Source: Nemertoderma westbladi (Eukaryota > Animalia > Xenacoelomorpha). From it: DNA of 64,000 nucleotides. The position numbers were made by a program, and so were the translations under genes. The stretch spans positions 1 to 64,000 of the forward strand of contig JAUCBJ010001244.1 in assembly GCA_032718475.1 (NCBI GenBank), given 5' to 3'. Positions 26,658 through 61,282 of the stretch are shown piece after piece. The notes under the pieces were generated by a model. The model saw only the letters and a program-made list of their open reading frames with translations, was not told where the DNA came from and searched no databases. Positions within the stretch are counted from its first letter, which is position 1; the number at the start of each line of letters is the position of its first letter.

Positions 26658-26865
26658 CCAATGTTGGAATATTGTTGTTCTAAATCAAAGCATCAATGTT
26701 CTCCAATGGAATTATTATTCTGAAATAAAATTCAATAAAATTAAACAACAAAATTAAATATTCTGAAATCGGGTTGGTACTGGTCAAACGACTCAGAGGA
26801 AATATGGCTTAGTATATTTCAATCCATTCCGGCAACTCTATCAGGTAGAGCCATGTTCGATAAGG

Positions 26866-28709
26866 GGATGTAGGTCAATTCGGTCCCGGACAATTCGGTC
26901 CCGGACAATTCGGTCCGGACAATTCGGTCCCAGACAATTCGGTCCCGGACAATTCGGTCCCAAAACACTAAATAAATGGGACCGAATTGTCCGGGACAGA
27001 ATTGTCCAGGACCAAATTGTCCTAGGACCGAATTGTCCTAGGACCGAATTGTTCGGGACCGAATTGTCCGGGACCGAATTGTCCAGTTCCTGATAGCAAC
27101 TTTTTAGTGCTTTTTTGATATTGGTGAATGTTCTAGAAAATTAGTAGAGATATTTGTTATGGTAGCTAGTGTTATTTACTTGCTAGAACTTTTTGAAATT
27201 TTAAAAATACTGTATTTTTTTTTATTTTTGTTATTGGTAGTGTTCGAGAACATTATTATATATTATTTATTAAGGTGTAGCTAGTGTTTTTTTTTTACTA
27301 GCTAGCATTTCCTTAAAATTATAAAAATACCTGTGAAAACATTGATATTTCAGAATTAGGCCTAAACTGTTGCTGATTATATTAATTACCAACAATATTG
27401 ATATTGATGAATAAATATGAATGAGATCCAGCTATTATCTACAGTACAGGCCACCAGAAAACGCAGATTTGTACAATTGTGAACACATTTTATCAAATGT
27501 GTACCAGTGTAATGTAATGTTGTTGAACGGGACAATTGAATATAATTGAACATAATTGAATTGGCAACAACCAAAATTTTTTCGCCAAAGGATACAATTG
27601 AATACTTTTGAAACGCTTAGTACTCTGGAAACTCTCTGTAGTTTGCCGCGAACTGTCACTCACTGCAGCTGGAAATGCGATAAGGATTTTGTTTACCTTT
27701 ATAGTGTGCGGTTAATGGTGTCTAGTAGGCAGGCCTATAGTTAGTGATGTTAAGGCATCTTCTGGTGTTACTCTGTGCCCTCTCGGTGTCAGACTAATGG
27801 CGCGACATCTCCCTGCACTGAATTAATTATTCAATGGTCTAGGCTCCTCCATCCATATATCCATCGACTCCCATACACTCCATGATCCTCCATGTGGTCT
27901 TGTATGTAGTTCTCTCTCTACCAATACAGCCCATGTCCGCAATGTTACGCCCTGGGGGCTCTCTCATCTACCTGATATCAGACATACAGGCGCACCACAC
28001 AATAAGCCTTTGTCGGTCCCAGCAAGTTAGCCAGCCTCCTGCTGTGTGATCTAGAAGATAACTCGCCATAACCTGCCAATCAGGTTACTTGAACAAATGT
28101 GTTCACATGTGATCACATTGGATGAAATCTGCTTTTTCTGGTGGCCTGTACTGTAGGATAATAATTTAGGCTTGTTATCCAACCAACAACACATACAGTA
28201 TACTTACGCAATATATAAAAAAAAAATCAGTTTTAAAAATAACCATTTTAAATACATACTATTACTAGCTAGTAAATAATTAACAAGCTCCATAAAAACA
28301 CCATAGCTACCATAAATAATAATGTTAACAAAAAAAGTAAATTTTTTTATTTAAAAAAAAAAAAAATACTAGCTAGCAAAAAAAAATACTAGCTACCATA
28401 TAATAATATATATTAAGGTTCTAGAACATTCACCATTATATAGTACCAATTAAATTTGGTCCCGGACAAATTGGTCCCGGACAATTCGGTCCCGGATAAT
28501 TCGGTCCCGGACAATTCGGTCCCGGACAATTCGGTCCCATTAATATGCATGTTTTGGGACCGAATTGTCCTAGTCAGTATCCGGACAATTCGGTCCCGGA
28601 CAATTCGGTCCCAAAACATAAAATTAATGGGACCGAATTGTCCGGGACCGAATTGTCCGGGACCAAATTGTCTGGACCGAATTGTACGGGACCGAATTGT
28701 CCTGCTTCC
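26866..28709. mobile_element. Foldback-type TIR element with 8-bp TSD (Merlin- or MULE-like)
   Basis: CGATAAGG at 26858-26865 and 28710-28717; termini GGATGTAGG / CCTGCTTCC; 15-bp GGTCCCGGACAATTC arrays at both ends; inner inverted matches 27121/28420 and 27439/28125. Confidence 0.85.
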
Positions 28710-29429
28710 CGATAAGGCTATGTCCTTGTACCAAAAGACTACCCAGGAATGTACCCAGGCTGCCATAAGAGACAAAGTTCTTCTGTTGTTCTATAATTTT
28801 CTTCTGCTTTAGCAAAGAACTGGTTACTTGACAGGCAGAAGAAGCACAACCTGGCGTCTAATTATGGAACTGAGAATAAAGATTCCACTGACGTAGATCA
28901 AGGACTTGGGGGAACTCCTTGTCCGGGGGACATCAAGAGCTGCTACAACAGCCTTTCATCGTGAACCACCTGTCCCTGAGGTAAATATCGCCCCAGCTGT
29001 ACTCACAGAGGGCATTGGAGAATTACCAACGACACCACCACATCTTCACCAGGCTCAGAAAGACAGAGTATTCTAGTGGCAAGATTGATTCATGAAATTG
29101 ATAGAATTTGGTTTGGGGCCAGATGTATCTTTAAAGGGAAGCGGCGGTGCCTAGTTTACACCTGATATTTTACTGCCAAACATGAAGCACCAGATGGGCA
29201 AGTACATCGGAATATCGCTGTGGGGAACGAAGCCAGCAGTATTTGGTGTCCCTACGCAGATGACCTATCGATTCTCTCTCTTTATGAACATCAAAAGAGA
29301 GAGCGCATGTCACAGCGTAAGAAACGCTATAGCGAAAGAAATTTAAAAGGAATAGATAATAACGATACCTGTACATAACTTTACAGTGTTTGATCCCATA
29401 ACTTTACAGTGTTGTGGCTTAATTTACAC

Positions 29430-31803: not shown

Positions 31804-31899
31804 TTAGAGCCATTATAGAATAGACAATGTAGTTAGTGATGCATGCCAGAGATTGTGTAGGTAATAACATTATATAAAGGCAAGATAGAAAAAGGTAGG

Positions 31900-32777
31900 A
31901 GTAGTAGGGTCTTGGCCGGCTCTGCGACAGTTGGACCCCACTGACACCCATTGGGTGTCATATGACACCCAATTATCACCCTATGGGTGTCATTGGGTGT
32001 CATTGGCGCCAGACTGTCTGGGTGACACCTCTCAATTAGGCTAATTAGACCCTAATTGACAGGTGTCATCAATTAATTAGTACAATTAAACCCTAACAGG
32101 TGTCATATGACTCCTAATTAGGGTTTAATTGATTATCCTAATTAATCAGACTGATTAGCGCCCTGACACACAATGGGTCGTCAGTGTTGTCCAACTGTCG
32201 CAGAGCCGGCTCAAGAGGGTGTCATAAGTGACACCGCAGCTCTTTTATTCATTAATACTTATTTATATTTAATTTTAATTATTTGCATTTTATTTTATTC
32301 GTATTTAATTCTAAATTAATTATTCATTTGTACTTTATGGGTATACAGCTCCCTTACTGGTAACTAATTACTCCAGACAGCTTTATCGTTGACCTTCGAC
32401 CCCCCAATTAGCTTTAACCAAGCAACAGCATATTAATGATAGTTGTATCCAAGCGCCCCTGCCCCCCACCCCGTGACAGCTCTGATTACTAATTACTCTT
32501 ACATATATCCAACCGCCTGCAGTTCCATAGTCTGCCGCTAGAGGGCGTATTATCTGAAAATTAACATCTTCTCTAACTTTGTTATTTTCAATTTAACTAT
32601 TTATTTGTACCTAATTTTAATTAATTATTTGTATTCTATTTGACTTTATTTATTCATTTGTACTTTATTTTAAATTAATTAATTGTATTACTTTTATTTT
32701 ATATATTGATTTCTATTTTTAGATTAATTTGGTTTTATATTACCAATGAGATCACTATGACATAATGTCTATTTTTA
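31900..32777 (+). repeat. Left terminal inverted repeat
   Basis: Reverse complement of 45193-46096 apart from a few substitutions and small indels. Confidence 0.95.
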
Positions 32778-33264
32778 ACTTTATAATGGCTATGGTATAC
32801 GGCTCCCTACTGGCAACTATCAACTACGTTCATCGGCGGGGGGCCCCTCCTCTGCCATCGCTTTTCATTAGTAGATACAACAGGCAGTGAATCTATACGT
32901 ATACCCCCCCAGGCAATTATAAATGAGTGGTCCCATCTGTTAGCAGCCCCTTTGTCTTCATTATTCAATGGCGCCAGGCGGCCTTGACTACAGCAAATCC
33001 CTATGTCGCCCAAGGCTAATGCTCAAGCGGCCCTCCATTGTTCTCGGCATAGCCGGCGTCGCTTTGCCCCTTTCCTATATCCAGGCAGCCCCTATCATAA
33101 CAATGAAGCGCCACTAATCACGCATTCCTCTCTACTAATCCCTTTCCTTTGCACCAGACCTGCTTCTGTTATACAGCCAACTCAACATAATTAGTCAAGA
33201 TGCCTACGGGGTTTCTAATATAGAATCAACAGGAGAAGTTGCCTTGGTAACCGCTTTTGCGCGA

Positions 33265-33360
33265 ACAGCCAATCAGCGGGCTTCATTTCTGCTGCTGCGC
33301 TCTGATTGGCCCATTTAAGAGACAAGGGCCTCCCTTACTAACCGAATTGCTATTTAATAC
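33265..33360 (+). promoter_or_regulatory. Putative Pol II promoter of the left transcription unit
   Basis: CCAATCAG (~33269) and inverted CTGATTGG (~33302) boxes, then TATTTAA at ~33351. Confidence 0.4.
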
Positions 33361-33470
33361 GTCCCCACTAATATATTAGGTCATTATTTCAATTGCAATT
33401 TACAATTAACATCATTTACCATTATTTTGTTTTCGAATTTAATATTATTTATTTAAGAATATTTATTTGT

Positions 33471-34280
33471 CATTTCGCCGCGTTATCACTCATCGTCGAC
33501 AACAAACTTTCCGCGTATCCGCCGCGTAATATTTCAATATTTCTAATTTCCGATACCATTCCGTTCTATCGGTTGATAAACTCTCTCCTCGTCCACGTCA
33601 ACCAACTTCCTCATCGCCACCGAACTTCCAAACTTCTTCTTTCCGTGAATATCTACTAACACCGTAAGTAAAATCTGCCTTCCATCTAGCTATACTTTCG
33701 ACGCCGCTAGCAAACAATTTACATTTAATGTCTACCGATACAACAGTATTGCAGTAGGCTCATTATTAATTACTGTCAGACTGCGGTGGTACCGATAGCC
33801 TAAACCGTGATCGAAGCATTCGATCAATAGGCTTACATCCGCCTATCTGCTTACAGTATTTTTTATCTTTTTACAAATAATCATCTTATTTTTCTAGTAT
33901 CATTTCGCCGCGCTATCGCTCATCGTCGACAACAAACTTTCCACATATCCGCCGCGTAATATTCCATTATTTCTAATTTCCGTTACCATTCCGTTCTATC
34001 GATTAATAAATTCTCTCGTCGTCCACGTCAACCAACTTCCTCACGAACATCCAAACTTCTTCTTTCCGTGAATATTTACTAACACCGTAAGTAAAATCTG
34101 CCTTCCCTTCCACCATCTGACGGTACTATCGATGCCGCTAGCAAACAATTTACATTTAATGTCTACCGGTACAACAGTATTGCAGTAGGCTCATTATTAA
34201 TTACTGTCAGACTGCGGTGATACCGATAGCCTAAACCGTGATCGAAGCATTCGATCAATAGGCCTACATCTGTCTATCTG
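33471..34280 (+). repeat. 430-bp-period tandem duplication containing putative non-coding leader exons
   Basis: Units start at 33471 and 33901; each has an ACC|GTAAGT donor (33664, 34087); acceptors TTTTTCTAG end at 33897 and 34802. Confidence 0.75.
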
Positions 34281-34809
34281 CCTGTCTACCTGACTATCGG
34301 TACCGCATCATTCGAGTTAGCCTAATGCCACTGTAGTAACGATATAGACCCTATTGAACAACAATGAATACTGCAGTTTTCATTATATATCCTACTGACT
34401 AACTGAGATCTCACACAGCGATTAGCTAAGCCTATCGTTGATTTCTATTGGTTAACGCTACCGGTACGTCTGACTTGTAGCAGACTATATCACTAGCACT
34501 ACTGCACTGACTGACTGCTGTTTATAGACCCTCTTTCCACGAATAATAACTGCCATCGCTATTGTGTCTTGGTTATCGCCACTATCTGACCGCTGGTACA
34601 CTAACACTACTGCACTAGGCACTACCGACGGCGACGGTCTGCTTTATGTTTCACTGTCTGATTGCTACAATACAGCAATAGGCCTAACTATACAAACACA
34701 GTATTGTTGCCTAGTAACCAATTAATACCTACTGTTTTACTTTATTTTTAGCAAGTATACAGTATTTTTTATTTTTTACAAATAATCAACCTATTTTTCT
34801 AGATTCAAG

Positions 34810-37800
34810 ATGCCAAGATCAACAAATAAAGTCAGCTGCCCCATCTGCGACAAAGAGACACGGAGTGATCATTTATCTCGCCACATTAAAACTCATTTCG
34901 TGCAATATAGGTGCGACTGCTGTCCGACTTGGTCTTCGGAAAAGAAGACGCTGGTTGGCCATCTTGTTTCGTGTCCTCAGGGGGGAACAGGATTTAGTTA
35001 CGTAAACGAGCCAGCCGATTGCCGCTGCGGGGATTCGCTCAGCCTGTCATCCTTTTCTGAGCATGAATGCTACACTCGACTTTTTTCGCGGAAACGCAAA
35101 ACTCCGACTACCTCCCACTCATCCCCCATCAACTCTACTCCAGAACAAGTCGGCGGCGGCGGCTCCAATAACGAACCTTCAACTTCGCGAGATTCTATTT
35201 CCCCAAACAATCCATTTCAACCACCCTCCAACGGAAGCGCACATGGACGACTGTTTACCTATAACAACGACCTCGCAGAAACAAGACTCGACGCAGAATT
35301 AACATTAAACGAAAATTTTCCACACATTCAAGAACATGTTAGTAGCCATTTACGTAGTGCCATGGGAACTTTTTTAAGAGTCTGGCTTACAATCAACATC
35401 GTAATGGAGCGTGAAACCAGCGAGGGTTTTCAAATTGAATCCTTCTGTTTTAAATCTAGCGGTAACAATAATCAAATTCTGAATAATAGCGACTTTAATA
35501 ACTGGTTTTCCGGCGCCGTCAATCGTATCGATCAACTGTTAAGTGTGTTTCTCTGCCTCGGCTCAGGTTGGCGCATAATAGCCATCGAGCGAATAACTAT
35601 TGAGATTGCGCGTTCCCAACGCAACCCCTATTTAAAGGGTCAAGGCTTCAATAATTCTAAATTATTATTAAATAAAAAATGTACCGTAAGCGTAGACTGC
35701 CCGCTGGGGGAATGCTTTAAATACGCAGTATTGGCCGCCGCAAATTATAAGAAAATTGATAGAAAACAAAATAATATTAGTAGAATTTCAACGTTTACTC
35801 CTTTCCTAAACATGTTTGATTTTTCGAATTTAAGTTTTCCGGTGGACAGAGTAACTGGTATTCCCCAGTTTCTGAAAGCCAACCCTAAATACTGCATAAA
35901 CCTTCTTTATTGGAGTAATACGGAAGAACTCTCCATTCTAAGTCAACCAGATAGCGCGCACTGTTCCGGTAAAACTGTACTAAACTTATTATTTATCGAA
36001 GCCACAAGCAAAAACCCCGCCCACTACGTAGCCATTACTAACATAGATAGATTAATAAATACAAAAGCTACTTCTACCGGCAACAAGACGCACTGCGAAC
36101 GCTGTCTCAGAGCCTTTTACACTGTCAAATCATTGGAAGAACATCGAGAGCGTTGCTATACGGGTAAACGCCAACTCGAGTATATGCCCGAAAATCTCTT
36201 GGTTAAATTTGATAGGTACGATAAGACTCTATCCCCGCCTTTCTGTATATACGCCGACATTGAAACTATTCTAGAACCTACAAACAATATTAAACTCCCA
36301 CAGAAACATATAGCTAGCGCGGCAGCCTTTTATACAGTACCAAATCAGAAATTAATTAACCCTCCTAAAACAGATGTTCAAATTTTCCGCGACGATGGCA
36401 GTAACCACGTAATGCGCGACTTTCTAACCGCTATGGAAAGTCATTGTAGGGAGTTATACGATTGGTCCATTTCTAGTACAAACACACACGCCCCCATGCA
36501 ACTCACTACTAGCCAGCAAACTGACTTTAATAACGCTACACAATGCTACGTCTGCAACTGTAATTTAACCCCCGATTCGCATAATTTAAACCTCAATGAC
36601 AATCTCAGCACCAAAGTCCGCGATCATGATCATTATAGCGGGGAGTATCGAGGGGCTGCTTGCGTCAGCTGCAACAGGAAACTTTCCCTAAAACGGAATA
36701 ATTTTTATATTATATTTCATAACTTGAGGAAATTCGATATGCATTTACTACTAAAAGAAGGAATGACCGATAGTTCTAGAACACACTGGAAAATGTCCGT
36801 AATACCAAAAAACACCGAAACTTATATTCACCTTAAAGTTAGCTTCCCAATCGATCCGAGTACACCAACAGCCAACGCTAAAGAAAGTATCTCCATTAAT
36901 TTTCTAGATTCCTATCAGTTTATGACTGCCAGCCTAGATAATCTTAGTAGCTATCTCACTAAAAATAACAGTAACCTAGCAACAGCCATACCCCATACAC
37001 TAGCTCAAATGACCCAACTCTATCCCAACATTAGCGATAACACAATAAAAAACAAGGGCGTATTCCCATATTCCTACATTCAAAATATTTCAAACCTATA
37101 CGAAACTACACTCCCCCCATTAGAAAGCTTCTATAATGATCTCAAATTGGAACAATGTAGCGCAGAAAACTATCAGCGCGCGCTTACTACTTGGGATGAA
37201 TTAAACTGTCTAACAATCTTCGACTATATGATTGGCTATTTGGTTCTAGATGTTACCCTATTGGCTGATACTTTCGAGCAGTTCCGATCCCTCTGTCTTA
37301 CTAATTATGGACTCGAGCCCGTAATGTACTTCACTGCCCCTGGATTAACTTACGACGCAGCGCTGAAATTCACGCAATCAGAAATTCAATTACTATCAGA
37401 CGCTTCCATCTACTCGGACTTTGAAACAAATATTAGGGGTGGTCTAGTATTCTTGAATACACATTCCGTAGACGCAAATATCCCCGATAAACCCGACTAT
37501 GACTCCAGTCTCCCCGAGAAATATCTAATTCCCATCGATGCGAATAACCTTTACGGCTGCGCCCTGAGCCAGAAACTTCCCCACGCTAATATTAAACTCG
37601 TAACTACCCCCATAGACCTAGCTACAGTAGACGCGAGTGGGGATACTGGTTATTATTGCATAGTTGATCTACATTACCCGAAAGAAATTCATGATTTGAC
37701 CGCCGATCTGCCTCTAGGAGCGGAGAAGATGTCAGTCCCTAAATCCTTTCTTAGCGAATACATGGAAGATCTTTGGGAGCATTACAATCTCACCGATACG

Positions 37801-38865
37801 GCTAGCTGTAGACCATACAACGATACCTGTACTAAGCTACTACTACATCAGTTTAATAAGGTTGAATACGGTATCCATATTAAGCTACTTCAACTCTATT
37901 TGAAGCTCGGTCTTAAACTTACACAAGTACATAGGGTCTACTCTTTCTCACAAAAATATATTTTCAAGGACTACATTAGTTTTAATACAAATAAAAGACA
38001 GTCGGCAAATAACCCATTCGAGGTCCTATTTTATAAGTTGATGAACAATGCCTTGTATGGGAAATGCCTCCAAAAGGTTAGAGACCGCGTTTCTTTCAGG
38101 TTATGCAATAGCGACGAACAATGCGATTTGCTCTTAGCCAAGCCCAATCACGAATCGTTTGTTGTATTTACCCCCAACTTGAGTGGTCATACTTTCACTA
38201 AAGAGGCTGTTTGCCTAAATCAGGGCGTGTTCATCGGTTGCACTATACTAGATCTATCTAAGCTACAGATGTACGACCTATTTTACAACAAACTGAAGCC
38301 TCTAGAACAAAAACTGGATTGCCAGATTCGCTGTCTAGCCGGTGACACGGATTCTCTAATGCTAAGCGTAACTAATACACCACAGCTAACCTTTCTACGG
38401 GCAATGTTTGAGGGTGGTTTCCTAGATACTTCCAACTACAGTACAACACATCCACTCTATACCATTAAACACAAAGCGGCTCTCGGCTTCGTAAAAGATG
38501 AGAGCTGCGGTTTGCAGTATAAACAGTGGGTTTTCCTTAAACCAAAGGTCTACAGTTTTCACTCCTATGATGCCCCAATCAAGAAAACCGCCAAAGGTGT
38601 ATCTAGATCGGTTGTCGCTAAGCAACTAACACACGAGGATTATGCAGACTGTTTTGTAAACGAGGCAATGCTCTTCCGCTATAACTCTACCTTCACTTCT
38701 AGAAAGCATCAAATTTTTACTGGTCATGTCTATAAGAAGGCACTAACGCTCTGGGATACGAAATCATATTGGAGTAGTAAATATAGCAGCAAACCATATG
38801 GACACTATAGCACTAAGCTTGTTAGACCGGCGAAACGAGTAGTAATCCCCCCTACTAGAATTTAA
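34810..38865 (+). CDS. Protein-primed family B DNA polymerase (Polinton pPolB), 1351 aa, with N-terminal C2H2 fingers and an endonuclease VII-like insert
   Basis: Exo motifs YADIET, FHNLRKFD, YLVLDV; pol motifs DANNLYG, KLMNNALYGK, GDTDS, KGV; CPIC..HIKTH finger; CYVC...RDHDHYSGEYRGAACVSCN. Uninterrupted ORF. Confidence 0.96.
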   Translation: MPRSTNKVSCPICDKETRSDHLSRHIKTHFVQYRCDCCPTWSSEKKTLVGHLVSCPQGGTGFSYVNEPADCRCGDSLSLSSFSEHECYTRLFSRKRKTPTTSHSSPINSTPEQVGGGGSNNEPSTSRDSISPNNPFQPPSNGSAHGRLFTYNNDLAETRLDAELTLNENFPHIQEHVSSHLRSAMGTFLRVWLTINIVMERETSEGFQIESFCFKSSGNNNQILNNSDFNNWFSGAVNRIDQLLSVFLCLGSGWRIIAIERITIEIARSQRNPYLKGQGFNNSKLLLNKKCTVSVDCPLGECFKYAVLAAANYKKIDRKQNNISRISTFTPFLNMFDFSNLSFPVDRVTGIPQFLKANPKYCINLLYWSNTEELSILSQPDSAHCSGKTVLNLLFIEATSKNPAHYVAITNIDRLINTKATSTGNKTHCERCLRAFYTVKSLEEHRERCYTGKRQLEYMPENLLVKFDRYDKTLSPPFCIYADIETILEPTNNIKLPQKHIASAAAFYTVPNQKLINPPKTDVQIFRDDGSNHVMRDFLTAMESHCRELYDWSISSTNTHAPMQLTTSQQTDFNNATQCYVCNCNLTPDSHNLNLNDNLSTKVRDHDHYSGEYRGAACVSCNRKLSLKRNNFYIIFHNLRKFDMHLLLKEGMTDSSRTHWKMSVIPKNTETYIHLKVSFPIDPSTPTANAKESISINFLDSYQFMTASLDNLSSYLTKNNSNLATAIPHTLAQMTQLYPNISDNTIKNKGVFPYSYIQNISNLYETTLPPLESFYNDLKLEQCSAENYQRALTTWDELNCLTIFDYMIGYLVLDVTLLADTFEQFRSLCLTNYGLEPVMYFTAPGLTYDAALKFTQSEIQLLSDASIYSDFETNIRGGLVFLNTHSVDANIPDKPDYDSSLPEKYLIPIDANNLYGCALSQKLPHANIKLVTTPIDLATVDASGDTGYYCIVDLHYPKEIHDLTADLPLGAEKMSVPKSFLSEYMEDLWEHYNLTDTASCRPYNDTCTKLLLHQFNKVEYGIHIKLLQLYLKLGLKLTQVHRVYSFSQKYIFKDYISFNTNKRQSANNPFEVLFYKLMNNALYGKCLQKVRDRVSFRLCNSDEQCDLLLAKPNHESFVVFTPNLSGHTFTKEAVCLNQGVFIGCTILDLSKLQMYDLFYNKLKPLEQKLDCQIRCLAGDTDSLMLSVTNTPQLTFLRAMFEGGFLDTSNYSTTHPLYTIKHKAALGFVKDESCGLQYKQWVFLKPKVYSFHSYDAPIKKTAKGVSRSVVAKQLTHEDYADCFVNEAMLFRYNSTFTSRKHQIFTGHVYKKALTLWDTKSYWSSKYSSKPYGHYSTKLVRPAKRVVIPPTRI

Positions 38866-38879
38866 TTTTATTTTTCTAG

Positions 38880-39395
38880 AATAAGAAATTGAACAACAAA
38901 ATAGAAATAACCAATAAACAGTTTACCGGAAAAAACATTGCCAAATTTGAACTAGAGAAAATTTCACAGCAAATTACAGGTCAAAGTTGCTTAAAACCAA
39001 ACATGTTTATCTACAAAGGTGACGATTCAACTATAATGCTATTTCCCAGCGGCGCAGTAACAATTGTAGGCCTTTGCAATAATTTAGCTAGTGAATTGCT
39101 TTATTTAAAACAGACTATCGGGATGCAATTACAAAATTTGAAACTTAATACCGAAACACGAACTATTATTTTTCCTAGTGTTAATTTTAAATTATTAATG
39201 AAAAAATGTGGACATCACACAATTAATAATAAAGCAATATTTATTAGCTATACCCCCGAATTATTTTGTGCGATTAGAATATATATAGGATGTGCATATT
39301 TCAGTGTATTTCATAGTAATAAAATCGTTTCCATGTGTCCAGCCGGTGAATTCCCTGAATCATTATCTATTTTACAAACTTTATTATTAAATTAG
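38880..39395 (+). CDS. Divergent TATA-binding-protein-like protein (two TBP repeats); 5' end probably spliced
   Basis: STIMLFPSGAVTIVG ~ TTALIFSSGKMVCTG; SYTPELFCAI ~ SYEPELFPGL; FSVFHSNKIV ~ LLIFVSGKVV; ~170 aa fits the TBP core; follows acceptor TTTTTCTAG (ends 38879). Confidence 0.8.
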   Translation, partial: NKKLNNKIEITNKQFTGKNIAKFELEKISQQITGQSCLKPNMFIYKGDDSTIMLFPSGAVTIVGLCNNLASELLYLKQTIGMQLQNLKLNTETRTIIFPSVNFKLLMKKCGHHTINNKAIFISYTPELFCAIRIYIGCAYFSVFHSNKIVSMCPAGEFPESLSILQTLLLN

Positions 39396-39439
39396 TTTAT
39401 TTACTATGGTATACATGAAAGTTTACTATATTATTTATT

Positions 39440-40440
39440 TTGTGTTGGTTTTTATTTTTCCGTGAGTAGGGTTTGAATCCGTGACCATCCGTGTTACCTA
39501 CTTTTTATAATTGCATTAGTAGGACTCAAACCCTGGTTTTTCCTATTTTGTGTTGGATTTATAATTGACGCGAGTAGGGATTGAACCCGTGACCTTCTGT
39601 TTTTCCTAATTTATGTTTAGTTTAGTTACTCTAGTTATTCTATGTTTACTTTTTATATTTTCATGATTAGTATTCAAACCCTGGTTTAACTTATTTCGAG
39701 TTGGATTTATAATGGTCGCGAGTAGGGATTGAACCTATGACCTCCTGTTTATTTTCCATAAAACGGGATACGAGTAGGGATTGAGCCCGTGACCTTCTGT
39801 TTTTCCTATTTTATGTTTAGTTTAGGTACTCTAGTTATTCTATGTTTAACTTATTTTGTGTTGGTTTTATATTGGTCGCGAGTAGGGATTGAACCCGTGA
39901 CCATCTGTTTATCCTATTTTGTGTTTACTTTTTATATTTTTCTATAAAACGGGATACGAGAAGGGGTCGAACATGTGACCACCTGTTTATCCTATTTTAT
40001 GTTTAGTTTAGGTACTCTAGTTATTCTATGTTTAACTTATTTTGTGTTGGTTTTATATTGGTCGCGAGTAGGGATTGAACCCGTAACAATCTGTTTATCC
40101 TATTTTGTGTTTAGTTTAGTTACTCTAGTTATTCTATGTTTACTTTTTATATTTTCATGATTAGGATTCGAACCCTGGTTTAACTTATTTCGTGTTGGAT
40201 TTATAATGGTCGCGAGTAGGGATTGAACCTATGACCTCCTGTTTATTTTCCATAAAACGGGATACGAGTAGGGATTGAGCCCGTGACCTTCTGTTTTTCC
40301 TATTTTGTGTTTAGTTTAGGTACTCTAGTTATTCTATGTTTACTTTTTATATTTTTTCATAAAACGGACACGAGTAGGGATTGAACCTACAGTATGACCA
40401 TCTGTTTATCCTATTTTATGTTTAGTTTAGTTACTCTATG
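39440..40440 (-). repeat. Composite tandem array of ~13 tRNA T-arm/B-box-like motifs
   Basis: Minus-strand units GGTCACGGGTTCAATCCCTACTCGCGACCA and CCAGGGTTCGAATCCTAA embedded in A-rich spacers. Confidence 0.85.
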
Positions 40441-43151
40441 TTAAAGTGAATTTTCACATTATATTTGTGTTAAATTATAAATTTATGTTGCAATTATTAT
40501 TTATATTATAAAAAACAGAAATATTCGAGTTATATTGCATTATATATTTTATATTGAAGTGGAATACTTTAGATGTTGGGGGACTCTGGTTTGCGAGGGA
40601 TATTTGAATGGTGAGTATAACTATCCTTGAGAGCTAGTGCAACGCTATCTCACTATGGATGGGCTTTACCACTGTACTCGCATCTGCTCTCTCATTGGCT
40701 GCTCGATGCCTCCGATTAAGGGTCTAAGACCTTCAAGCTGATTATTTGCTTAGTTTTCTAATTAGAAGGTCGTGAGTTTGGACCCTAGAAGAGCATTATT
40801 CTTTTTCCTAGCTCTTGGTTAACTCTAGCATATACTCTAGCTTCGACTCTCCCAGCTATAGTGATAGTATGCAACCTTGGGAGTTAATGTGAGTAAAGAC
40901 CAAGAGATTAGACTTCAGGCTCCCTCTATTGGTTCATTCTTCTTAACTTTATAAAATAACTCAACCCGTATTTAAAGTTTTAAAAATTATGACTTAGTCG
41001 ACTAATTTTCCAAAGTATATTATAAAAACATATAATTTCTTGAATAGATAGACCTAATAGTAATAAATAATGTGGGGGTAAATACATTTATAATTCTAAT
41101 ATAATTATTAAGGATAAATAGTCCCAATACTAATATAATTATGTAATAGTAAGCAAAATTTTTATGCGCAACCATCAGAGATTATTTGGATATAAAAGAT
41201 CACACAGCAGGAGGCTAACTTGCTGGGATCGTGTGTCGCTATGTCTTATATCGGGTGGATGAGAGAGCCCCCTCCGGCGCAACATTGTGAACATGGGCTA
41301 TATTGCTAGAGAGAGAACTACATATAAGACCATGGCCGGCCCTCATGCAGATTTAGCGGCGCCAAGGCTAACGCGGAAAAAATAAAAAGTAAACACAAAA
41401 TAGGATATACAGATTGTCATAGATTCGATTCCCTACCCCCGATCAGAGTCATTATGATCCTCCCCCGATAATTATAGAATATTTTATAGGCCGGTAGTAT
41501 TGGGGTTATTATGTGACTCATGAAAATAAATCTTAAATACAATACAAATGCTCCATCTGGGTAAAAGTGGATGCAATGTATTTACAAATCGAGTGTGGAT
41601 CAGGATAGTTTTCGTTAAGGTTTCACCTTGGTGAAGTGGAAGCATTGTATTCACATTTCGAGTACCATTTTTATTGAAACTATGGGGCATTTTATATTAG
41701 CCGATTTTTCAAAATTTGTAAAGTTTTGAGGGTTTTTATGAAAAATATAGGGATTTAGGGATTATCATTCAAATTGACTACGAAGAAGGCATAGGGATCA
41801 TTAATGGTGTGCTGAGACTCAGAAATTTTCAGGAAATTTAAATTTTTGCCCTCGCTTCGTGGAAAATATAAAAAGTAAACACAAAATAGGATATACAGAT
41901 TGTCATAGATTCGATTCCCCACCTCGATCGGGGTCATTATGACCCTCCCCCCCGATATTTATACAACATTTTATAGCCCGGTAGTATTATGATTAAAGCT
42001 ACTAACCTAAAACATAACAAAGTGCAATTATCCTATCTGTTCCAACTCGGTGTCACTAGTTTAGATAATATACTATAATAATAGTGATAGCAGATGCTTT
42101 TAATTTCGCGATGAAATAATATCAGCAAACGAGATATAGTGAATACATCATAGATAGAATTTTAAATTTTGCAGTTGCAAGGAGTGATAACCCTTAGGTG
42201 AAAGCTAAATTTGCTCTACTTTAATCAAATGGGGCATTAAAGCTACGAGTATATTTTCCTCTACATCCTCCCTCGAACTTACACAAATCTGGGCAAAAGG
42301 CAGTTGAAAGGCTATCATTTCCCATCATATGCGGTCCTCCCTTTAATGTTTCATTGTTCTATTCATAGTCGCCTTTAAGAATTTCTCGGGAAAATAAGGA
42401 TGAGGGGCTATCACTTTCAACCCCATGCGGCCCTCCCTTTCATGATTTCATTGAACTATCCATAGTACGAACAATCAAACCAAAGCCTTTGAATATCCTC
42501 GCGGCTTATCAGCGGCGCCATGGCTAACGGCTTAATATTAACAGTGAAGCATCTAAAAGACAGAGTGTCTATGATAGGACAGAACAGCGTACTTACAGCC
42601 TAGAGGTGGTCGCCCTGAAAACTTTGCTCGCCATCAATACATACAAAGCATCGCTTGATGGATAGAGTAATAGGGTGGATATTTTCATTTTGGTGAATAT
42701 AATTTATAGCATTAATCACGAAAATCGCTAAATAATATATTTTAATTAAAATCAGCTCTGATAAACAACTTGCATATCGAGTTTGTAAAGAATTCATAGG
42801 GATTGGCTGTTTATTTAGGGGTTAACATGCAAATTGATTACGAAGAAGCAGTAGGGGTCATTAATGGTATGCTGAGACTCACTTACTTCATGGCTCGCTC
42901 TCATAGAATAGATTAACTAGTAGAGAAAAATGAAAAATAACCGGTTAAACATCTTATATTTTTTAAACAATATGGGGAAACAAGAATAAATAATTTACCG
43001 ACAACATCAATATTAAATAATATAACAACAGATAAATAATTTACCAACAACATTGAAAATAAATAATATAAGAACATCAACAATAACAAAAGATATAATC
43101 AGAACAGTTTTTAATAAATAGAGACTGTTTATATTAATAGGGTTGCTGGTC

Positions 43152-44843
43152 TCAGAGAATATCTGGTTTAACCCTTTTAGGGTCCGATACTATTAATGGT
43201 TGCGATAATTTTCTCTTTAATAGTTTATTGAGATAACCTTTTCTTGGGGGGTGAGATAGATTAAGGTGTGTTTGCTGCGGGAGAAATATGCCTTCTCTGA
43301 GAGAACGTTTTAGTAACTCGAAAAGGCGCGCGATGGTAAAGTCGTTGGATAGGGTGATAGTGTTGGTATTTTTCGTATTGGTGAATATAATTTCTGCTGG
43401 TTTGTTCTCGATATGAATGTAAGGACTGAGATAGTAGTGAGAGTTGGGTGGGTTGGTTATATTTATCGCGAGAAAATCGCTGCCCCTAATATTGAGACCG
43501 TTGGTGAACTGAAAAGTGGAATTCTCTTCGTCTTTCATTAAAATGGGCCAGATACCAACATATTTTTCGGATTTGAACTTATAGATAAAGGCTGCGATAC
43601 TGCTATTTATGAGATAGCGCTGGTGATTGGGGATTGTAATCTTCTTCGGTTTGAAAGCAAATTGTATAGCCATAGCCTTGAATCTGATTAGAGCCTCGCG
43701 CGCTTGAATTGTGTTAGCTATAGTAAAGGATTCGTTAAATTTTCTCTCGGTTATCTGTAAATCAATTTCTGAATCGCTGATACAACTTTGTATCGATATT
43801 CGCTCGGAAATGTTGTCTTTGTATACGTTAAGTTCATCGTAGCAGACACATTCACTATCCTCGACGGTTGAATCGAACCATTTCAATTCGCCGACCTCGG
43901 TTGGTGTAAGAAGAATCATGCCCCTAGAAGAAACAATAGCCTTTCCATCGTCAACCTCGTAGCCATTGGTGATCGCTAAATTGCGCTCGTTCCGAATATT
44001 TGTAACAAACCCAAAAGTGCAATAGTCAAAAGCAACCCAATTTCCCGGTTTTAGGACAAGGTGAGTAGTAGGATTAATAAAAGGGCGACAGATGTTTACA
44101 TATTGTTGAAATAAATTGGCGCAGGTGACGGAAAATGTGATCCATGAACTGTTTACAGTGTCTTCCAGCTTTATTAACTCGAGTGGATTCACTGGGTTAA
44201 TACTTCCATAGGTGCCAACTCTATAATTGAATCCAAAGTAATAGGAGACTTTATTGGCGAAAAAGCATGTGAGCTCATTCAATTTCTCGCCGAAAGTGAG
44301 AACATCCTTGTCGAAAAGTTTAAAGAAACGAGTCTCCTCTTCCTCGGTCGGAGTCGACGAGTTCCAGATGAGAAGAAGAATCGAGTTTGCGATACTATGA
44401 AAATCAAATAAGCGATCATCGGAGAAGAAGGAGGTTACGAGGGTGGTTAAACCCAGTAGACGATTTGCCACATCTTGGTTGATGTTTTCTCGAATAAAAT
44501 CGACTATACTAGTTGGAATCGTAAACGTCTCGGGCGAAGTAGTTAGATTGAACGTGATTTTGTTGTCCATTTTTAAAAGTTTGAAACCGTGGTTGGAGGA
44601 ATGAAGTTTATTATCGTCGAGGGTTTGATATTGTCCATCGTGAAGTTCGTAGCAGGCGCGGAAAATAAAGTGCGCGTAGTTTGCCGGAATCGGGATGGGT
44701 TGGTTTAAGGTTGTATTTATCGTTAACGGGAAGAGTTTGTTCGCCGGATCGAAATATAGACCAAACGAGTTGTCTTGTAGCATAAACTGATTTTCGTTGC
44801 AAACCAGATCGTTGCTTGAATAGCTGATTTCTGAATGTGCCAT
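43152..44843 (-). CDS. 563-aa orphan protein of the element, basic NLS-like C-terminus
   Basis: Long intact ATG-initiated ORF in AT-rich DNA; ends KLLKRKL...PKRVKP; no family motif recognised. Confidence 0.85.
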   Translation of the reverse strand: MAHSEISYSSNDLVCNENQFMLQDNSFGLYFDPANKLFPLTINTTLNQPIPIPANYAHFIFRACYELHDGQYQTLDDNKLHSSNHGFKLLKMDNKITFNLTTSPETFTIPTSIVDFIRENINQDVANRLLGLTTLVTSFFSDDRLFDFHSIANSILLLIWNSSTPTEEEETRFFKLFDKDVLTFGEKLNELTCFFANKVSYYFGFNYRVGTYGSINPVNPLELIKLEDTVNSSWITFSVTCANLFQQYVNICRPFINPTTHLVLKPGNWVAFDYCTFGFVTNIRNERNLAITNGYEVDDGKAIVSSRGMILLTPTEVGELKWFDSTVEDSECVCYDELNVYKDNISERISIQSCISDSEIDLQITERKFNESFTIANTIQAREALIRFKAMAIQFAFKPKKITIPNHQRYLINSSIAAFIYKFKSEKYVGIWPILMKDEENSTFQFTNGLNIRGSDFLAINITNPPNSHYYLSPYIHIENKPAEIIFTNTKNTNTITLSNDFTIARLFELLKRSLREGIFLPQQTHLNLSHPPRKGYLNKLLKRKLSQPLIVSDPKRVKPDIL

Positions 44844-44959
44844 CGTGATTGTGTATCGGTAACTCGTTTAGGAAATAAAAATAAATAAATACTTTTACGA
44901 AAATAATTAAAACTTTTCAGGAAAACAAAGAGACAATGATTGGGAATGTGGTGAACGGG

Positions 44960-45062
44960 GGCTATTATAGAGGGGGCTAGAATGGGTTAGCCAATCAGGG
45001 AACAGGAGGGAGAAAAGACTGTATAATTAAACCAATCAGAGAGCAGCTTTGATGACGTCACA
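44960..45062 (-). promoter_or_regulatory. Putative Pol II promoter for the 563-aa ORF
   Basis: CRE-like TGACGTCA (45053-45060), two CCAATCAG boxes (~44991, ~45032), TATAATAG on the minus strand at ~44962-44969. Confidence 0.5.
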
Positions 45063-45192
45063 TCAGGCGAGATAATGATTGCCCAATGTTATTCAATGGT
45101 AGACAGAATGGCGCCATTGAATAACGAAGACAAAGGGGCCGCGAGAGGAAAGATTATAAAGTTAACGATAAGGGATCTATAAACCATAGAGC

Positions 45193-46096
45193 TAAAAATA
45201 GACATTATGTCATAGTGATCTCATTGGTAATATAAAACCAAATTAATCTAAAAATAGAAATCAATATATAAAATAAAAGTAATACAATTAATTAATTTAA
45301 AATAAAGTACAAATGAATAAATAAAGTCAAATAGAATACAAATAATTAATTAAAATTAGGTACAAATAAATAGTTAAATTGAAAATAACAAAGTTAGAGA
45401 AGATGTTAATTTTCAGATAATACGCCCTCTAGCGGCAGACTATGGAACTGCAGGCGGTTGGATATATGTAAGAGTAATTAGTAATCAGAGCTGTCACGGG
45501 GTGGGGGCAGGGGCGCTTGGATACAACTATCATTAATATGCTGTTGCTTGGTTAAAGCTAATTGGGGGGTCAAAGGTCAAAGGTCAACGATAAAGCTGTC
45601 TGGATATAGATAAGAGTAATTAGTTACCAGTAAGGGAGCTGTATACCCATAAAGTACAAATGAATAATTAATTTAGAATTAAATACGAATAAAATAAAAT
45701 GCAAGTAATTAATTAAAATTAAATATAAATAAATAGATATTAATGAATAAAAGAGCTGCGGTGTCACTTATGACACCCTCTTGAGCCGGCTCTGCGACAG
45801 TTGGACAACACTGATTGACCCATTGTGTGTCAGGGCGCTAATCAGTCTGATTAATTAGGATAATCAATTAAACCCTAATTAGGAGTCATATGACACCTGT
45901 TAGGGTTTAATTGTACTAATTAATTGATGACACCTGTCAATTAGGGTCTAATTAGCCTAATTGAGAGGTGTCACCCAGACAGTCTGGCGCCAATGACACC
46001 CAATGACACCCATAGGGTGATAATTGGGTGTCATATGACACCCAATGGGTGTCAGTGGGGTCCAACTGTCGCAGAGCCGGCCAAGACCCTACTACT
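45193..46096 (-). repeat. Right terminal inverted repeat
   Basis: Reverse complement of 31900-32777. Confidence 0.95.
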
Positions 46097-46460
46097 GGTA
46101 GGAAAGAGAAACATTTAGAGAAACATTAAAACCTTAATAATAATCTTAATAAATAACCCTAATACAAATAAACTTTATTTTATAACTCCAGAATAACCTT
46201 TACATTTGGTGACCCAGACTGTTGCACTTGCATCTTTCTAATTTAATTAATTTCTGAACTTTCTCTGATTATTACACCTCCAATATAAAAACATGGCAGA
46301 AGATGGAGATCCACCACAGACACCAATCAAAGATGATCACAGAGGAGACGTAAAATTTTCTATATAAATGGAATGGCATATCATATTAACCGACAATTAC
46401 CCAATCACCCCCAATATATTGCTATACTATCATTTATTGCTATCTATACATTGCAATGTC
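46097..46460 (+). mobile_element. 3' part of an LTR, PBS and decayed gag start of a Gypsy-like element interrupted by the Polinton
   Basis: AATAAA-rich stretch ending TTACA (46204), then TGGTGACCC PBS-like sequence and ATG at 46293; candidate LTR start TGTAG with TATAAA at ~31856-31899. Confidence 0.5.
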
Positions 46461-51470: not shown

Positions 51471-51593
51471 ATTTAATTATTTTCTTATTTTAATTAAATA
51501 ATTATTTTATATTTTGTGCGTGGGAAGGGCGTCTCGCCCTCATTCCCACCCCCCTCAGTCCAAAACTTTGGACGACTAAAAACTCTCACGTGC

Positions 51594-53650
51594 CCTGAAT
51601 ATAGACATGGCATTGTCAAATATACACAGGGAGATGTAGGTATATTGGAATCTGTCCAAGCACGCGATGCAATAGTTGGACTACCTGAATGGCATCAATT
51701 TACTGACAATCAGGTTCTTACAGTTCACGAGATGGGGAATAGTGAGTATATTGCCGACTCCATAACATCCTTTAGTATCAGAGCTCCTGAACTCCGAGTT
51801 TTTGATAAAGTAGAGGTTTTCTTTGAATGCTTTGGTATTATAGGGAAAGTACAGAAATATCATTGTCACTTAGAACTTAAGAAATGCCGATGGATTGATG
51901 GCAATAAACGTCATTGGAAACTAAGGCCTACTGGCATTCCAATAGCTGTGGAATTTCTTACATGTAAAGCTGCGAATGGGAATATTATTGCTAAGCAGTT
52001 GTTAGATGAGGTATTTTTTCCCATTGCTGCAGGACAATTACATAAGAGATTTGTAAGCTCTCTTGAACGTCATAAAAAACCTGCAATTGTTGTATTTTCT
52101 TGTATAAGTCCTTTACAAATGAGCCGTTTCTTATTTCATTTGGTATACATAATTGGCAGCTTTGAGACAGAGTTAGATCTTCTATCTGTCGAAGATATTC
52201 GGACTTCATTCGTCAGAGCAAGTCTTATATCAAATGAGAATAATGTGCCAGCTGAGGAGGTTAATAGCTTACTTCAATCATATGTTGTGAAAGAGCTCAC
52301 TTTTCAATCCATTGGAAATATTCAACTCCAGCGTTTCCTCCATCTAGCTATTACTGGTGTTAGACAATTCTTTGCTGGAGATGGTTTGCTCTATGAGGCA
52401 ATAGCTCTCTTTTATGAGGATAGTATTCGGGACCAGTGTACTGAACAAGTAGCTAATATTGAGAGTATGAGACGCAGAAATTTAGTTGATTCACTATATG
52501 AGAAAGATGGTTTGGTATTACCTGATGAGCAGGGTGTTTTACCACAGGATCGACAATTAATAACTGCTACCCGAGAATGCCCTCTTAATTGGAAACCTCT
52601 TTAGAAATCAGTTCAAGGACAATCACAGGATTCCATTGCTGAGCAACGAGATATGTTGCAGATATTAGTAAATGCTATTGATGAATATCAGCATCCATCA
52701 CACAACATTTGTCCATTCTCCATGGTTAGTAGGAGCACCAGGTGTAGGAAAGACAACAGTAATGTTGGAAGCTATGGCTTACAGCCTTGCATGTGGTCTG
52801 AATGTTATGCTCACAGCAATTACAAGTGAGAGAGCCAGAGTATTAGGGGGTGAACATCTTCATTTACTTATGCCATTTGGTGTTCATCATGGTAAAATAA
52901 CATCTACAGGATTAGCTCAAGAATGTCTCTTAAGTTTAGCAAAAAGTCCATCTAAACTTGCTTTACTTAAACGATTGAATATCATTTTCTTTGAGGAGTA
53001 TGGCATGCTTTCTTGTGAACAACTAGCAGCCATTGATCTCATACTGCATAGAATATGTAACACACAAAGGCCATTTGGTGGAAAATTATTCATAGGATGT
53101 GGAGATAGATCATTGCCAACTAGAGCCTGTTGAGGGTCGAGTAGTTTGGCTTAGTACTCATTTTATTACAACCTTTACTGTTATGGTTTGCTGACATTTT
53201 GTTCGTAGTGCAAATGATGAAGAATTGCAACTAGTTATAACAATCTTGCGCACATCAAACCCATCCATCTCCTAATTTGATTGATCAAATGATAGGAATA
53301 TTAAAGAGACGCTGTAACTTCCTTGATAGCTGGGATGATGTCCCAGATGATGTCTTAAAGGTTGTAGGAACTCGGGCTGGTGAACAGGAAGTATTACAAA
53401 AATATCTTTCACAGCACCGAAACGAAGTTGGAACAGTTTCTATCACTAGCCATGATCAGGTAACTAGTGGGAATCCTTCGGAGGATAATTGTTGGAGGGA
53501 TACCGATTCACCTAGTATTATTAATTTTATAACAAGATCATGTCGTGAGCCACTTGATTTGATTCTGTTCCTTAACCAGATCCTCCGTTTTACATTTAAT
53601 AGACAGAGTGAGCAACCAAAGTTTTCAAATGGTCAATTGTGTCTGCATAC
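51594..53650 (+). pseudogene. Duplicate copy of the Helentron-like linker plus PIF1 helicase N-half (partner 54817-56870)
   Basis: Near-identical to 54817-56870 (offset ~3223), sharing the same premature stops; Walker A GAPGVGKT. Confidence 0.9.
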
Positions 53651-54719
53651 TAAAGTAAACTAATATACTAATAGTCGCAAGTCTTTATATAAAATATACA
53701 TTACTCTAACAATAGAATAATTGTTGTAAAAATAACACAATAAAAATTTATTACTAATATAAATTAATAACTTTTTAATTTTCAGATAAAAATTCATCAG
53801 TTGGAAAATCAAAAACGTATGAATAACGAGCCCAAAAAGAAACGCCGACACGAGAATTATACAAACTACCATCGTTAACAGTATGCCACGATCTGAGGGT
53901 GGAGAAGTTTGAGGCTATACAATACACAAACTCTACATATCAGTTACTAAGTTTGTGCAGTATATAGCGAAATTGGAGAAGGCTATAAAAACGGCTATAT
54001 TTCGGATAGAATTTGAAATATAACAAAAACATTGATTTTTTAAATAATCTATTCCATCCATTATCCCTTTTAGATAAGATCTGGAATGTTTCCATTCTTT
54101 AAACTCCAAATTTTGCGTTTTTTTAACATTTAAAGTATTAATTTAAATAAACTAGATATTTATTAACTTAATCTACGCAACATACTACAATTAAGGGTGA
54201 TGGACCAGCGAAAAATTTGGTTAGTTTTTAAAAATTTAAAGGGTAAATCTAAATACTAAATTTATATTTATTTACGTAGTGTAAACACTACAACAGCCGC
54301 GAGCAATAATTAATTCTCATACATTGCAACCAAATTATGTACCACCATTAAATCTTTCTTTTTTTATACATCATTATAAAAGAAAACAAAAGTACTGCAA
54401 AATAAAATTTTGAAGTAAATTAGACTAAATTACTAGATCTAAATTTGTTGATTAATTATTATATTAAAACAATAATGGGGAACTTTTTTACAAAAACGAT
54501 TTCAACCAATCAAATTTCACATCCCAACGATCATTTTTTCGATCATTTTTTATTTATTCGTACGACTACTAGAACTGGAGATTATACAATTTGAAGATCT
54601 CCGATGACCGATAAGTCTATTCCGTGTAATCCCGCAAAGACCGCAGGTTATTCGAGTCCCGTCTTCATAATAAGATTCTAAAAGAGAAGGAAAAAAAAAG
54701 AAACAAAGACTGCAATTAA

Positions 54720-57700: not shown

Positions 57701-57838
57701 TTTCAAGTTGGTGTTGAGATAGTTCGAAATTGGAATACTAAAGTATATAATGATGATGATGGAGAAGTCAACAATTTCGAGCTGAAAATATGTAAACCAT
57801 CGATCTCTCAGTATATTTTATATGCTCCTATTGCATAA
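54720..57838 (+). pseudogene. Helentron-like RepHel C-terminal half: linker, PIF1 helicase and GIY-YIG nuclease
   Basis: REMGYPEVVH...STLTPEYR; GAPGVGKTT; IFFEEYGMLS; PFGGKLFIGCGD; QFPLHYFCAGTIHGVQGQ; then GFVYML...YIGQT...ARLLAH...PWAL...GFP...FETEW. Several stops and frameshifts. Confidence 0.85.
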
Positions 57839-61010: not shown

Positions 61011-61168
61011 TAAACTTTATTTATTTGTATTAAATAGAAATGGAGATCAAATTAACTAAATAAATGAATACGAGTCCATATTCTCTATAACGAATACAAG
61101 TAAACGTTTTCTGATACATAACGTCTAAAACTGTTGTGGGTCCTTACGCCCTCTTGCCTCTGATCCTA

Positions 61169-61282
<114 letters not shown>

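What the first reader, a model, noticed from the sequence alone, without database searches (positions are those of the whole stretch)
38880..39395. Mobile element encodes its own TATA-binding-protein homologue
Seen: a ~170-aa ORF directly after pPolB with both TBP repeat signatures. Three of the four DNA-intercalating Phe positions appear kept (LFPSG, PELF, VFHS); the first (PKRF in TBP) is not. Known: TBP nucleates Pol I, II and III initiation, some large DNA viruses encode TBP homologues, and it is not a core Polinton gene. Inference: it may redirect host transcription to element promoters, act as a dominant-negative decoy, or bind the AT-rich TAATTA palindromes in the TIRs as an origin-binding factor.
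Basis: partly seen in the sequence, partly recalled or inferred. Interest (0 to 1): 0.88.

Follow-up and report, generated by a model that had tools for sequence, protein, structure and literature searches.

The report
Start-less TBP in a stripped Maverick
A virus-like jumping element in this genome has lost its capsid and integrase genes but keeps a distant relative of the cell's TATA-binding protein; the gene lacks a normal start codon yet its reading frame stays intact, so it is likely a weakly made private promoter factor or a recently disabled one.

Summary
Window 38880-39395 is an open 171-codon frame, 14 nt after an intact pPolB, inside a 14.2-kb Maverick/Polinton-derived element (0.9-kb TIRs, AGTAGT ends, 6-bp TSD) with no integrase, ATPase, protease or capsid. 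It is a TBP homologue: a profile of 120 Maverick-type TBPs scores it 52.8 bits (best of 3000 shuffles 11.2), and an AlphaFold model matches both TBP lobes (Z 14). It is an inherited gene of one pPolB clade: the 3 TBP-bearing loci found lie in the window's clade, 0 of 28 outside. It begins right behind a splice-acceptor-like 11-mer that also precedes pPolB. The main sequenced copy also lacks the AUG, and 6 of 8 listed variants are silent. Best reading: a fast-evolving element promoter factor made from a near-cognate start; main rival: a recently disabled gene. A 'TBP' label on such elements is in print (Starrett 2021, figure legend), and this scan noted Maverick TBPs four times on other DNA. 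Function is untested.

The parts
31894..31899 (+). left 6-bp target-site duplication
   Evidence: identical to 46097-46102
31900..32784 (+). left terminal inverted repeat, begins AGTAGT; 11 TAATTA words
   Evidence: 96% identical to 45186-46096 over 912 columns; count
33256..33400 (+). predicted Pol II promoter: two CCAAT boxes, TATA-like TATTTAA at 33351, initiator-like TCATT at 33381
   Evidence: read from sequence; motif meanings recalled; untested
33381..34802 (+). predicted non-coding leader: exons about 33381-33663 and 33898-34086 (a 431-bp tandem duplication), donors ACC|GTAAGT at 33664 and 34087, acceptors TATTTTTCTAG ending 33897 and 34802
   Evidence: all 6 ATGs between 33341 and 34810 fall in the predicted introns; no spliced junction seen
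34810..38865 (+). intact pPolB, 1351 aa: C2H2 finger, terminal-protein region, vOTU-like Cys/His, EndoVII-like insert, polymerase motifs
   Evidence: Pfam PF03175 E 2.5e-18; motifs conserved in alignment A1; domain order per PMC11161782 passages
38869..38879 (+). splice-acceptor-like TATTTTTCTAG directly before the TBP-like frame
   Evidence: 3 matches in 64 kb, all in the element; 0.08 expected
38880..39395 (+). TBP-like frame, 171 codons, no AUG before 39003; in-frame near-cognate codons at 38889, 38901, 38907
39444..40443 (-). tandem array with seven Pol III B-box-like words on the minus strand; no tRNA gene
   Evidence: B-box consensus recalled
43152..44843 (-). intact 563-aa ORF of no known family
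   Evidence: no significant hit in Pfam, NCBIfam, PHROGs, PDB, phages or the fetched loci
44900..45075 (-). predicted second inward-facing Pol II promoter: CRE-like word, two CCAAT boxes, TATA-like TATAATA
   Evidence: read from sequence; motif meanings recalled; untested
45186..46096 (-). right terminal inverted repeat, ends ACTACT
46097..46102 (+). right 6-bp target-site duplication

Best explanation
The frame is a fast-evolving member of a TBP family inherited with one clade of Maverick/Polinton polymerases, and it likely acts as the element's own DNA-binding promoter factor, likely made in small amounts from a near-cognate (non-AUG) start. Shown: homology, the two-lobe fold (as a model), the link to the pPolB clade, the missing AUG, and the loss of integrase and virion genes from this copy. 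Inferred: a promoter inside the left TIR makes a non-coding leader that is spliced either to pPolB or to the matching acceptor before the TBP frame; ribosomes start near codon 8, where relatives have their Met. Inferred: the protein grips AT-rich DNA through three kept Phe residues and favours the element's two inward-facing promoters. It is probably poorly coupled to host TFIIB, since one of the two acidic stirrup residues is gone. With the structural genes lost, selection on the gene probably loosened, which would explain the long branch and the weak start.
For: Homology: hhalign to three Maverick-linked TBPs probability 96, E 4e-9; profile of 120 relatives 52.8 bits against 11.2 for the best of 3000 shuffles, match over residues 6-150; model pLDDT 80.6; Foldseek best E 2.9e-7; VIA Z 14.0, rmsd 3.5, 160 residues, next non-TBP Z 7.8. 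Linkage: the window's pPolB falls in a 13-row clade (support 100) with all 3 TBP-bearing loci; 0 of 28 long loci outside have TBP. The part before Met42 keeps all four near-invariant family columns there (12, 25, 38, 40), and 52 of 105 relatives begin five residues before the conserved Asn, i.e. at codon 7-8. The main contig of run X1 has no difference over 38867-38956, so the missing AUG is not an assembly slip. 6 of 8 listed variants in the frame are silent against 0.20-0.27 expected, P 0.001-0.007; none listed is a stop or a frameshift. The acceptor-like 11-mer is shared with pPolB; a similar acceptor precedes pPolB in 5 of 40 loci, including both long TBP-bearing ones (control rate 4.6%). 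Viral TBPs generally keep DNA-contact residues and lose adapter and regulator surfaces (PMC7221094, passages).
Against: No AUG at the family start. The protein departs from 5 of 19 near-invariant columns (43, 125, 130, 147, 154) while none of 108 relatives departs from more than 3. End branch 3.22 against a median of 0.18. The element has no late structural genes to drive. Every contig of run X4 that crosses 38879 (four of six) carries the acceptor unspliced. The variant list is incomplete (contig breaks at 38956/38988 and 39121/39123 without a listed change), and only 9 of 21 listed pPolB variants are silent. The model rests on an alignment of TBP relatives, so it leans towards that fold; the single-sequence model failed. 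The 120 relatives were picked with a profile in which the window protein was one of four rows. No DNA-binding or promoter data exist.
Confidence: 0.45

Rival explanations
1. Recently disabled relic: the gene drove late structural genes in a full Maverick ancestor, decayed after those genes were lost, and lost its start in the master copy that founded today's family.
For: No AUG before codon 42, also in the main copy of run X1; 5 of 19 near-invariant columns changed; very long branch; no virion genes in the element.
Against: 171 codons without a stop despite at most 29% identity to any relative in the tree; 6 of 8 listed variants silent; first-lobe invariants and the acceptor are kept; a 3.2-kb deletion form removes the polymerase core but keeps the acceptor and the frame.
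Confidence: 0.3
2. The frame is the last exon of a fusion: the donor-like site at 35686 in pPolB is spliced to 38880 and gives a zinc-finger/terminal-protein/TBP chain that would bring a DNA-bending domain to the genome ends.
For: The site shares 8 of 9 bases with the two leader donors, lies in phase 0, in frame with the TBP frame, and sits near the predicted TP/vOTU border.
Against: In-frame by chance one time in three; the site also codes a conserved residue; two other phase-0 donor-like sites score higher; relatives are stand-alone proteins, 116 of 120 starting with Met (only lengths 92-342 aa were searched).
Confidence: 0.08
3. A 130-aa product from Met42, with only one whole lobe, acts as a decoy that binds host factors or DNA.
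For: Met42 is the first AUG on a leader-spliced RNA and has A at -3.
Against: It would lack strand 1, helix 1 and strand 2 of the model; residues before Met42 are the best-conserved part, and the departures cluster in the second lobe.
Confidence: 0.07
4. Origin-binding or Pol III role: the protein bends the AT-rich TIR for protein-primed replication, or works with the B-box-like array that follows its stop.
For: TAATTA 11 times in the TIR against 1.6; 11 matches to a B-box pattern, all at 39470-40387, against 0.97 expected.
Against: TAATTA is not a TBP consensus (recalled) and is not enriched at the starts of L035 and L037 (ends may be missing). The B-box words are tandem copies of one unit with no A box seen and no tRNA or Rfam match.
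Confidence: 0.1

Closest known systems
TBP-labelled gene in MELD viruses with adintovirus-like PolB (Starrett et al. 2021, PMC8502044; section 10 and passages read, figure not visible)
   Same: [quoted passage not shown] 5 legend.
   Different: The text gives no analysis, and I could not see which element carries it. The window element lacks integrase and virion genes and its TBP frame has no AUG start.
Maverick-type TBPs found here (L034, L035, L037; 298 database relatives)
   Same: Same pPolB clade, same strand downstream of pPolB, about 165-195 aa, shortened first stirrup, three kept Phe.
   Different: They have their own Met start, pass the Pfam cut-off (46-57 bits) and keep YEPELFP; two sit among integrase, ATPase and structural genes. 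The window protein is 19-29% identical and directly abuts pPolB.
Maverick/Polinton elements (PMC8097293, passages)
   Same: TIRs, (AGT)2//(ACT)2 ends, 6-bp TSD, pPolB, size within the 12.7-24.6 kb range.
   Different: [quoted passage not shown]
Viral TBP mimics: KSHV ORF24 (PMC12529657, abstract) and NCLDV TBPs (PMC7221094, passages)
   Same: Divergent TBP fold with kept Phe residues, used or proposed for viral promoters.
   Different: Those come with partner viral factors (TFIIB homologues, a pre-initiation complex) in large genomes; no partner is recognisable in this three-gene element.
Cellular TBP (PDB 1cdw, 1ytb and others)
   Same: Two-lobe saddle, Z 12-14 over about 160 residues.
   Different: 15-19% identity; first stirrup shortened; second conserved Asn and one TFIIB-binding acidic residue absent.

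Membership tests
TBP fold superfamily (PF00352) | Profile homology to TBP | tested here: met
   52.8 bits against a profile of 120 PF00352-bearing relatives, shuffles at most 11.2; hhalign 96%. Direct Pfam score is below cut-off.
TBP fold superfamily (PF00352) | Two-lobe saddle fold | tested here: met
   Model pLDDT 80.6; Z 14.0, rmsd 3.5, 160 residues to TBP; alignment-driven model.
Canonical eukaryotic TBP | Four DNA-intercalating Phe | tested here: inconclusive
   Three kept; the first lies at a five-residue deletion and Phe43 may or may not take its place.
Canonical eukaryotic TBP | Two acidic residues of the second stirrup that bind TFIIB | tested here: not met
   Position 125 is not acidic, 127 is; role of the pair per PMC7221094.
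Canonical eukaryotic TBP | Binds TATA DNA and nucleates initiation | not testable with these tools
   Needs binding and transcription assays.
Host paralogues TBP/TRF2/TRF3 | Groups with animal TBP paralogues in a tree | not tested
   No named animal paralogues were in hand; against 12 canonical-like TBPs from viral contigs the protein falls on the Maverick-type side (support 99, long branch).
Maverick/Polinton | TIRs, AGT end motif, 6-bp TSD | tested here: met
   criteria in PMC8097293
Maverick/Polinton | Intact pPolB | tested here: met
Maverick/Polinton | rve integrase | tested here: not met
   No ORF and no tblastn hit (E up to 0.1) with two integrases in 31900-46096.
Maverick/Polinton | Packaging ATPase, protease, major and minor capsid genes | tested here: not met
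   No hit with six such proteins of L035/L037 (named by eye except the ATPase) or with 639 ORFs of 85 pPolB loci; the 563-aa ORF could not be folded, so a very divergent structural protein is not excluded.

The most novel reading that the evidence does not exclude
A three-gene, capsid-less and integrase-less Maverick replicon that spreads with outside help, runs pPolB and a private TBP from one adenovirus-like spliced leader, and keeps the TBP at low dose through a non-AUG start so as to switch on its own TIR-proximal promoters without host TFIIB control.
Probability: 0.25. Interest if true: 0.8.

Novelty: new variant of a known kind. Interest (0 to 1): 0.5.

Why it matters
How integrated Mavericks are switched on is unknown. 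A heritable TBP family tied to one pPolB clade gives a concrete handle: about 300 natural variants of a minimal 165-195 aa viral TBP, far smaller than herpesvirus mimics, whose DNA preference can be measured. This copy adds a natural experiment, since it shows what happens to the gene when the structural genes are gone. If it is translated from a non-AUG start it would be a rare case of dose control of a basal transcription factor by a mobile element. If it is a relic, the finding is ordinary decay of an accessory gene.

Tried and rejected
Direct searches with the frame found nothing: PDB phmmer 0; 0 of 56 candidates in the large protein set; 0 among 1.84 billion representatives; NCBIfam 0; PHROGs best E 0.18. 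A profile of 13 canonical-like TBPs from viral contigs scored it 7.7 bits, matched or beaten by 3 of 2000 shuffles. The single-sequence model had pLDDT 29.7. The ESM Atlas gave 30 of 30 TBP hits at 0.95 but with recognition 1784, below the tool's bar, so I count it as weak. Locus scans of viral contigs with pPolB alone, with TBP alignments A3 and A5 and with the 563-aa ORF returned no loci. No whole genome is held, so copies could not be counted or aligned. No RNA holder listed. Run X4 is filed as 'DNA?' but one contig ends in what I recognise (recalled) as a cDNA template-switch adaptor at 38203, so it may be cDNA; this is not established. No GT..AG joint appears in the 15 of 17 joints shown and no loose end at 38880 among the 13 of 15 shown; contigs show presence, not absence. 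A 177-bp skip 38696->38874 in X4 has 8 shared bases and non-canonical ends, keeps the stop before the frame, and is not splicing. Trans-splicing of an AUG-ending leader (known from flatworms, recalled) would be in frame at 38880, but the host is unknown and no such end was seen. An upstream AUG micro-exon was rejected by eye for the leader region. A shared late-promoter word before genes of L035 and L037 was not evident by eye. The 563-aa ORF does not match the L035 minor-capsid-like protein and could not be run in the Atlas. No complex prediction was sent. Paper searches found TBP together with Polinton elements only in Starrett et al.; two 2026 preprints on Polinton-like viruses hold no 'TBP' or 'TATA'. 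Supplements were not read and may hold more.

Full report
The element. Window 31900-46096 is bounded by inverted repeats of about 0.9 kb (96% identical over 912 columns), begins AGTAGT, ends ACTACT and is flanked by the same six bases on both sides. These are the end motif and target duplication used to define Mavericks (PMC8097293, passages). Three long frames lie inside: pPolB 34810-38865, the frame in question, and a 563-aa ORF on the other strand. pPolB is intact, with a zinc finger, vOTU-like Cys and His and all polymerase motifs. Integrase, ATPase, protease and capsid genes are not detected: 639 ORFs from 85 pPolB loci hit only pPolB and the TBP frame, and eight core proteins gave no hit at E 0.1. 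The family is multi-copy: 892 and 2009 contigs of two runs lay on 6 kb of it, in identity bands from under 90% to over 99%. The host is unknown; the surrounding repeats and the pPolB relatives suggest an animal (inference).

Is it a TBP? Direct searches are weak or empty (Pfam 18.4 bits, cut-off 22.9). The link came through neighbours. Among 1433 ORFs from 85 pPolB loci, two matched the frame at E about 1e-5, and three pass the Pfam TBP cut-off. hhalign against those three gives probability 96. A search with their alignment found 298 relatives. A profile of the best 120, without the window protein, scores it 52.8 bits over residues 6-150; the best of 3000 shuffles reached 11.2 and the reversed sequence -0.1. 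AlphaFold on 109 rows (108 of the 120; 12 short ones left out) gave pLDDT 80.6 and two strand-helix-strands-helix lobes. Foldseek found 44 PDB matches at E 0.001 or better, and every listed one holds TBP. VIA gave Z 11.7-14.0 for 38 TBP entries and 7.8 for the next fold. Viral TBP-like models also match. The model leans on the alignment, but the profile score does not depend on it.

Where it comes from. In a FastTree of pPolB C-terminal halves (42 rows) the window falls in a 13-row clade with support 100 that holds all three TBP-bearing loci and one long locus without TBP; eight rows in it are too short to tell. None of 28 long loci outside has the gene (32 of 34 long loci were in the tree). 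In a quick TBP tree (69 rows) the protein sits on the Maverick-type side of a split from 12 canonical-like references, on an end branch of 3.22 against a median of 0.18, so its exact place is unsure. The gene is therefore an inherited accessory gene, not a recent host capture. Its ultimate donor was not tested.

Residues. Phe55, Phe129 and Phe144 match family columns that are nearly invariant. The first stirrup is five residues shorter than in canonical TBP across the family. The window protein departs from 5 of 19 near-invariant columns, four of them in the second lobe, while no relative departs from more than three. One of the two acidic residues that bind TFIIB in cellular TBP (PMC7221094, passages) is absent, as is the second conserved Asn.

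The missing start. The first AUG is codon 42. Of 105 relatives with the conserved Asn, 52 begin exactly five residues before it, which maps to codon 7-8; 116 of 120 begin with Met. The window has no AUG there; in-frame near-cognate codons lie at 38889, 38901 and 38907, the second in an A-rich context with G at +4. The main contig of run X1 shows no difference over 38867-38956 and no variant is listed at 38880-38906 in three runs, so this is a family trait. The frame starts right after TATTTTTCTAG, found three times in 64 kb (0.08 expected), the other two before a duplicated leader segment and before pPolB. Matching donors lie at 33664 and 34087, and all six ATGs of the leader region fall in the predicted introns. 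This suggests one non-coding leader spliced to either gene. No spliced junction was seen in contigs, which can show presence only.

Selection. Eight variant sites are listed in the frame; six are silent, against 0.20-0.27 expected (P 0.001-0.007). None is a stop or a frameshift. The list is incomplete, and only 9 of 21 listed pPolB variants are silent, so this is moderate evidence. A deletion form in runs X3 and X4 removes 3.2 kb of pPolB and keeps the acceptor and frame.

Mechanism. Most likely (0.45) the protein is still made at low level from a near-cognate start and acts on the element's own promoters, as viral TBP mimics do (PMC12529657, abstract; PMC7221094, passages). Both promoters lie just inside the TIRs, face inward and carry CCAAT boxes with imperfect TATA words (motif meanings recalled). 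The main rival (0.3) is a recently disabled gene. Fusion by splicing, a one-lobe decoy, and origin or Pol III roles are less likely. DNA binding, translation and splicing are all untested.

What is known. Starrett et al. [quoted passage not shown] Seven library searches found no study of Maverick TBPs; the library lacks most subscription papers. This scan noted Maverick TBPs in four earlier findings on other DNA and a spliced pPolB leader once; these are unchecked notes, not support. Nothing similar to this frame or to the 563-aa ORF was in the scan's sequence index.

Verdict. New here: the three-gene element without integrase or capsid, the shared acceptor, and a conserved frame without an AUG start. 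New variant of a known kind; interest 0.5.

Noticed in passing
joint 35643->38873 in runs X3 and X4: A deletion form of the element removes the vOTU and polymerase parts but keeps the first 278 codons of pPolB, ended by a stop near the predicted terminal-protein border, and keeps the acceptor and TBP frame. It recalls the split terminal-protein gene reported in a coral polinton (PMC11161782, passages).
   Followed up: partly
window 39444-40443, 41422, 41908: Tandem array with seven B-box-like words on the minus strand just after the TBP stop, and two inverted related copies further on; possibly remnants of a tRNA-derived repeat.
   Followed up: partly
window 43152-44843 (-): Intact 563-aa orphan ORF with its own CCAAT/TATA-like promoter and a basic C-terminus; no family found.
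   Followed up: partly
window 60668-62029: A second, about 84% identical left-TIR-like end, followed by a 147-codon frame (61586-62029) that by eye resembles a negative-strand RNA virus nucleoprotein; no significant hit in Pfam, NCBIfam, PHROGs or PDB.
   Followed up: partly
window 5995-6487, 9056-9559, 10454-10641 (-): Pieces of the pPolB 5' region (80-94% identical) interleaved with reverse-transcriptase fragments in a 3-kb duplication.
   Followed up: no
window 12375-13184 and 51498-57838: Broken Helitron-like (below Pfam cut-off) and PIF1-helicase pieces, the latter in a 3.2-kb direct duplication.
   Followed up: no
L035:2790-2816, L037:4210-4239, L034:5165-5194, L037:14590-14633: Acceptor-like pyrimidine tracts lie 16-33 nt before the start codons of pPolB and TBP in TBP-bearing Mavericks, while most other pPolB loci have AT-rich TATA-like words there; spliced non-coding leaders may mark this clade.
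   Followed up: partly
window 26848-28710: Arrays of a 15-bp unit (GGACAATTCGGTCCC) in direct and inverted orientation, like the ends of a foldback or miniature element.
   Followed up: no
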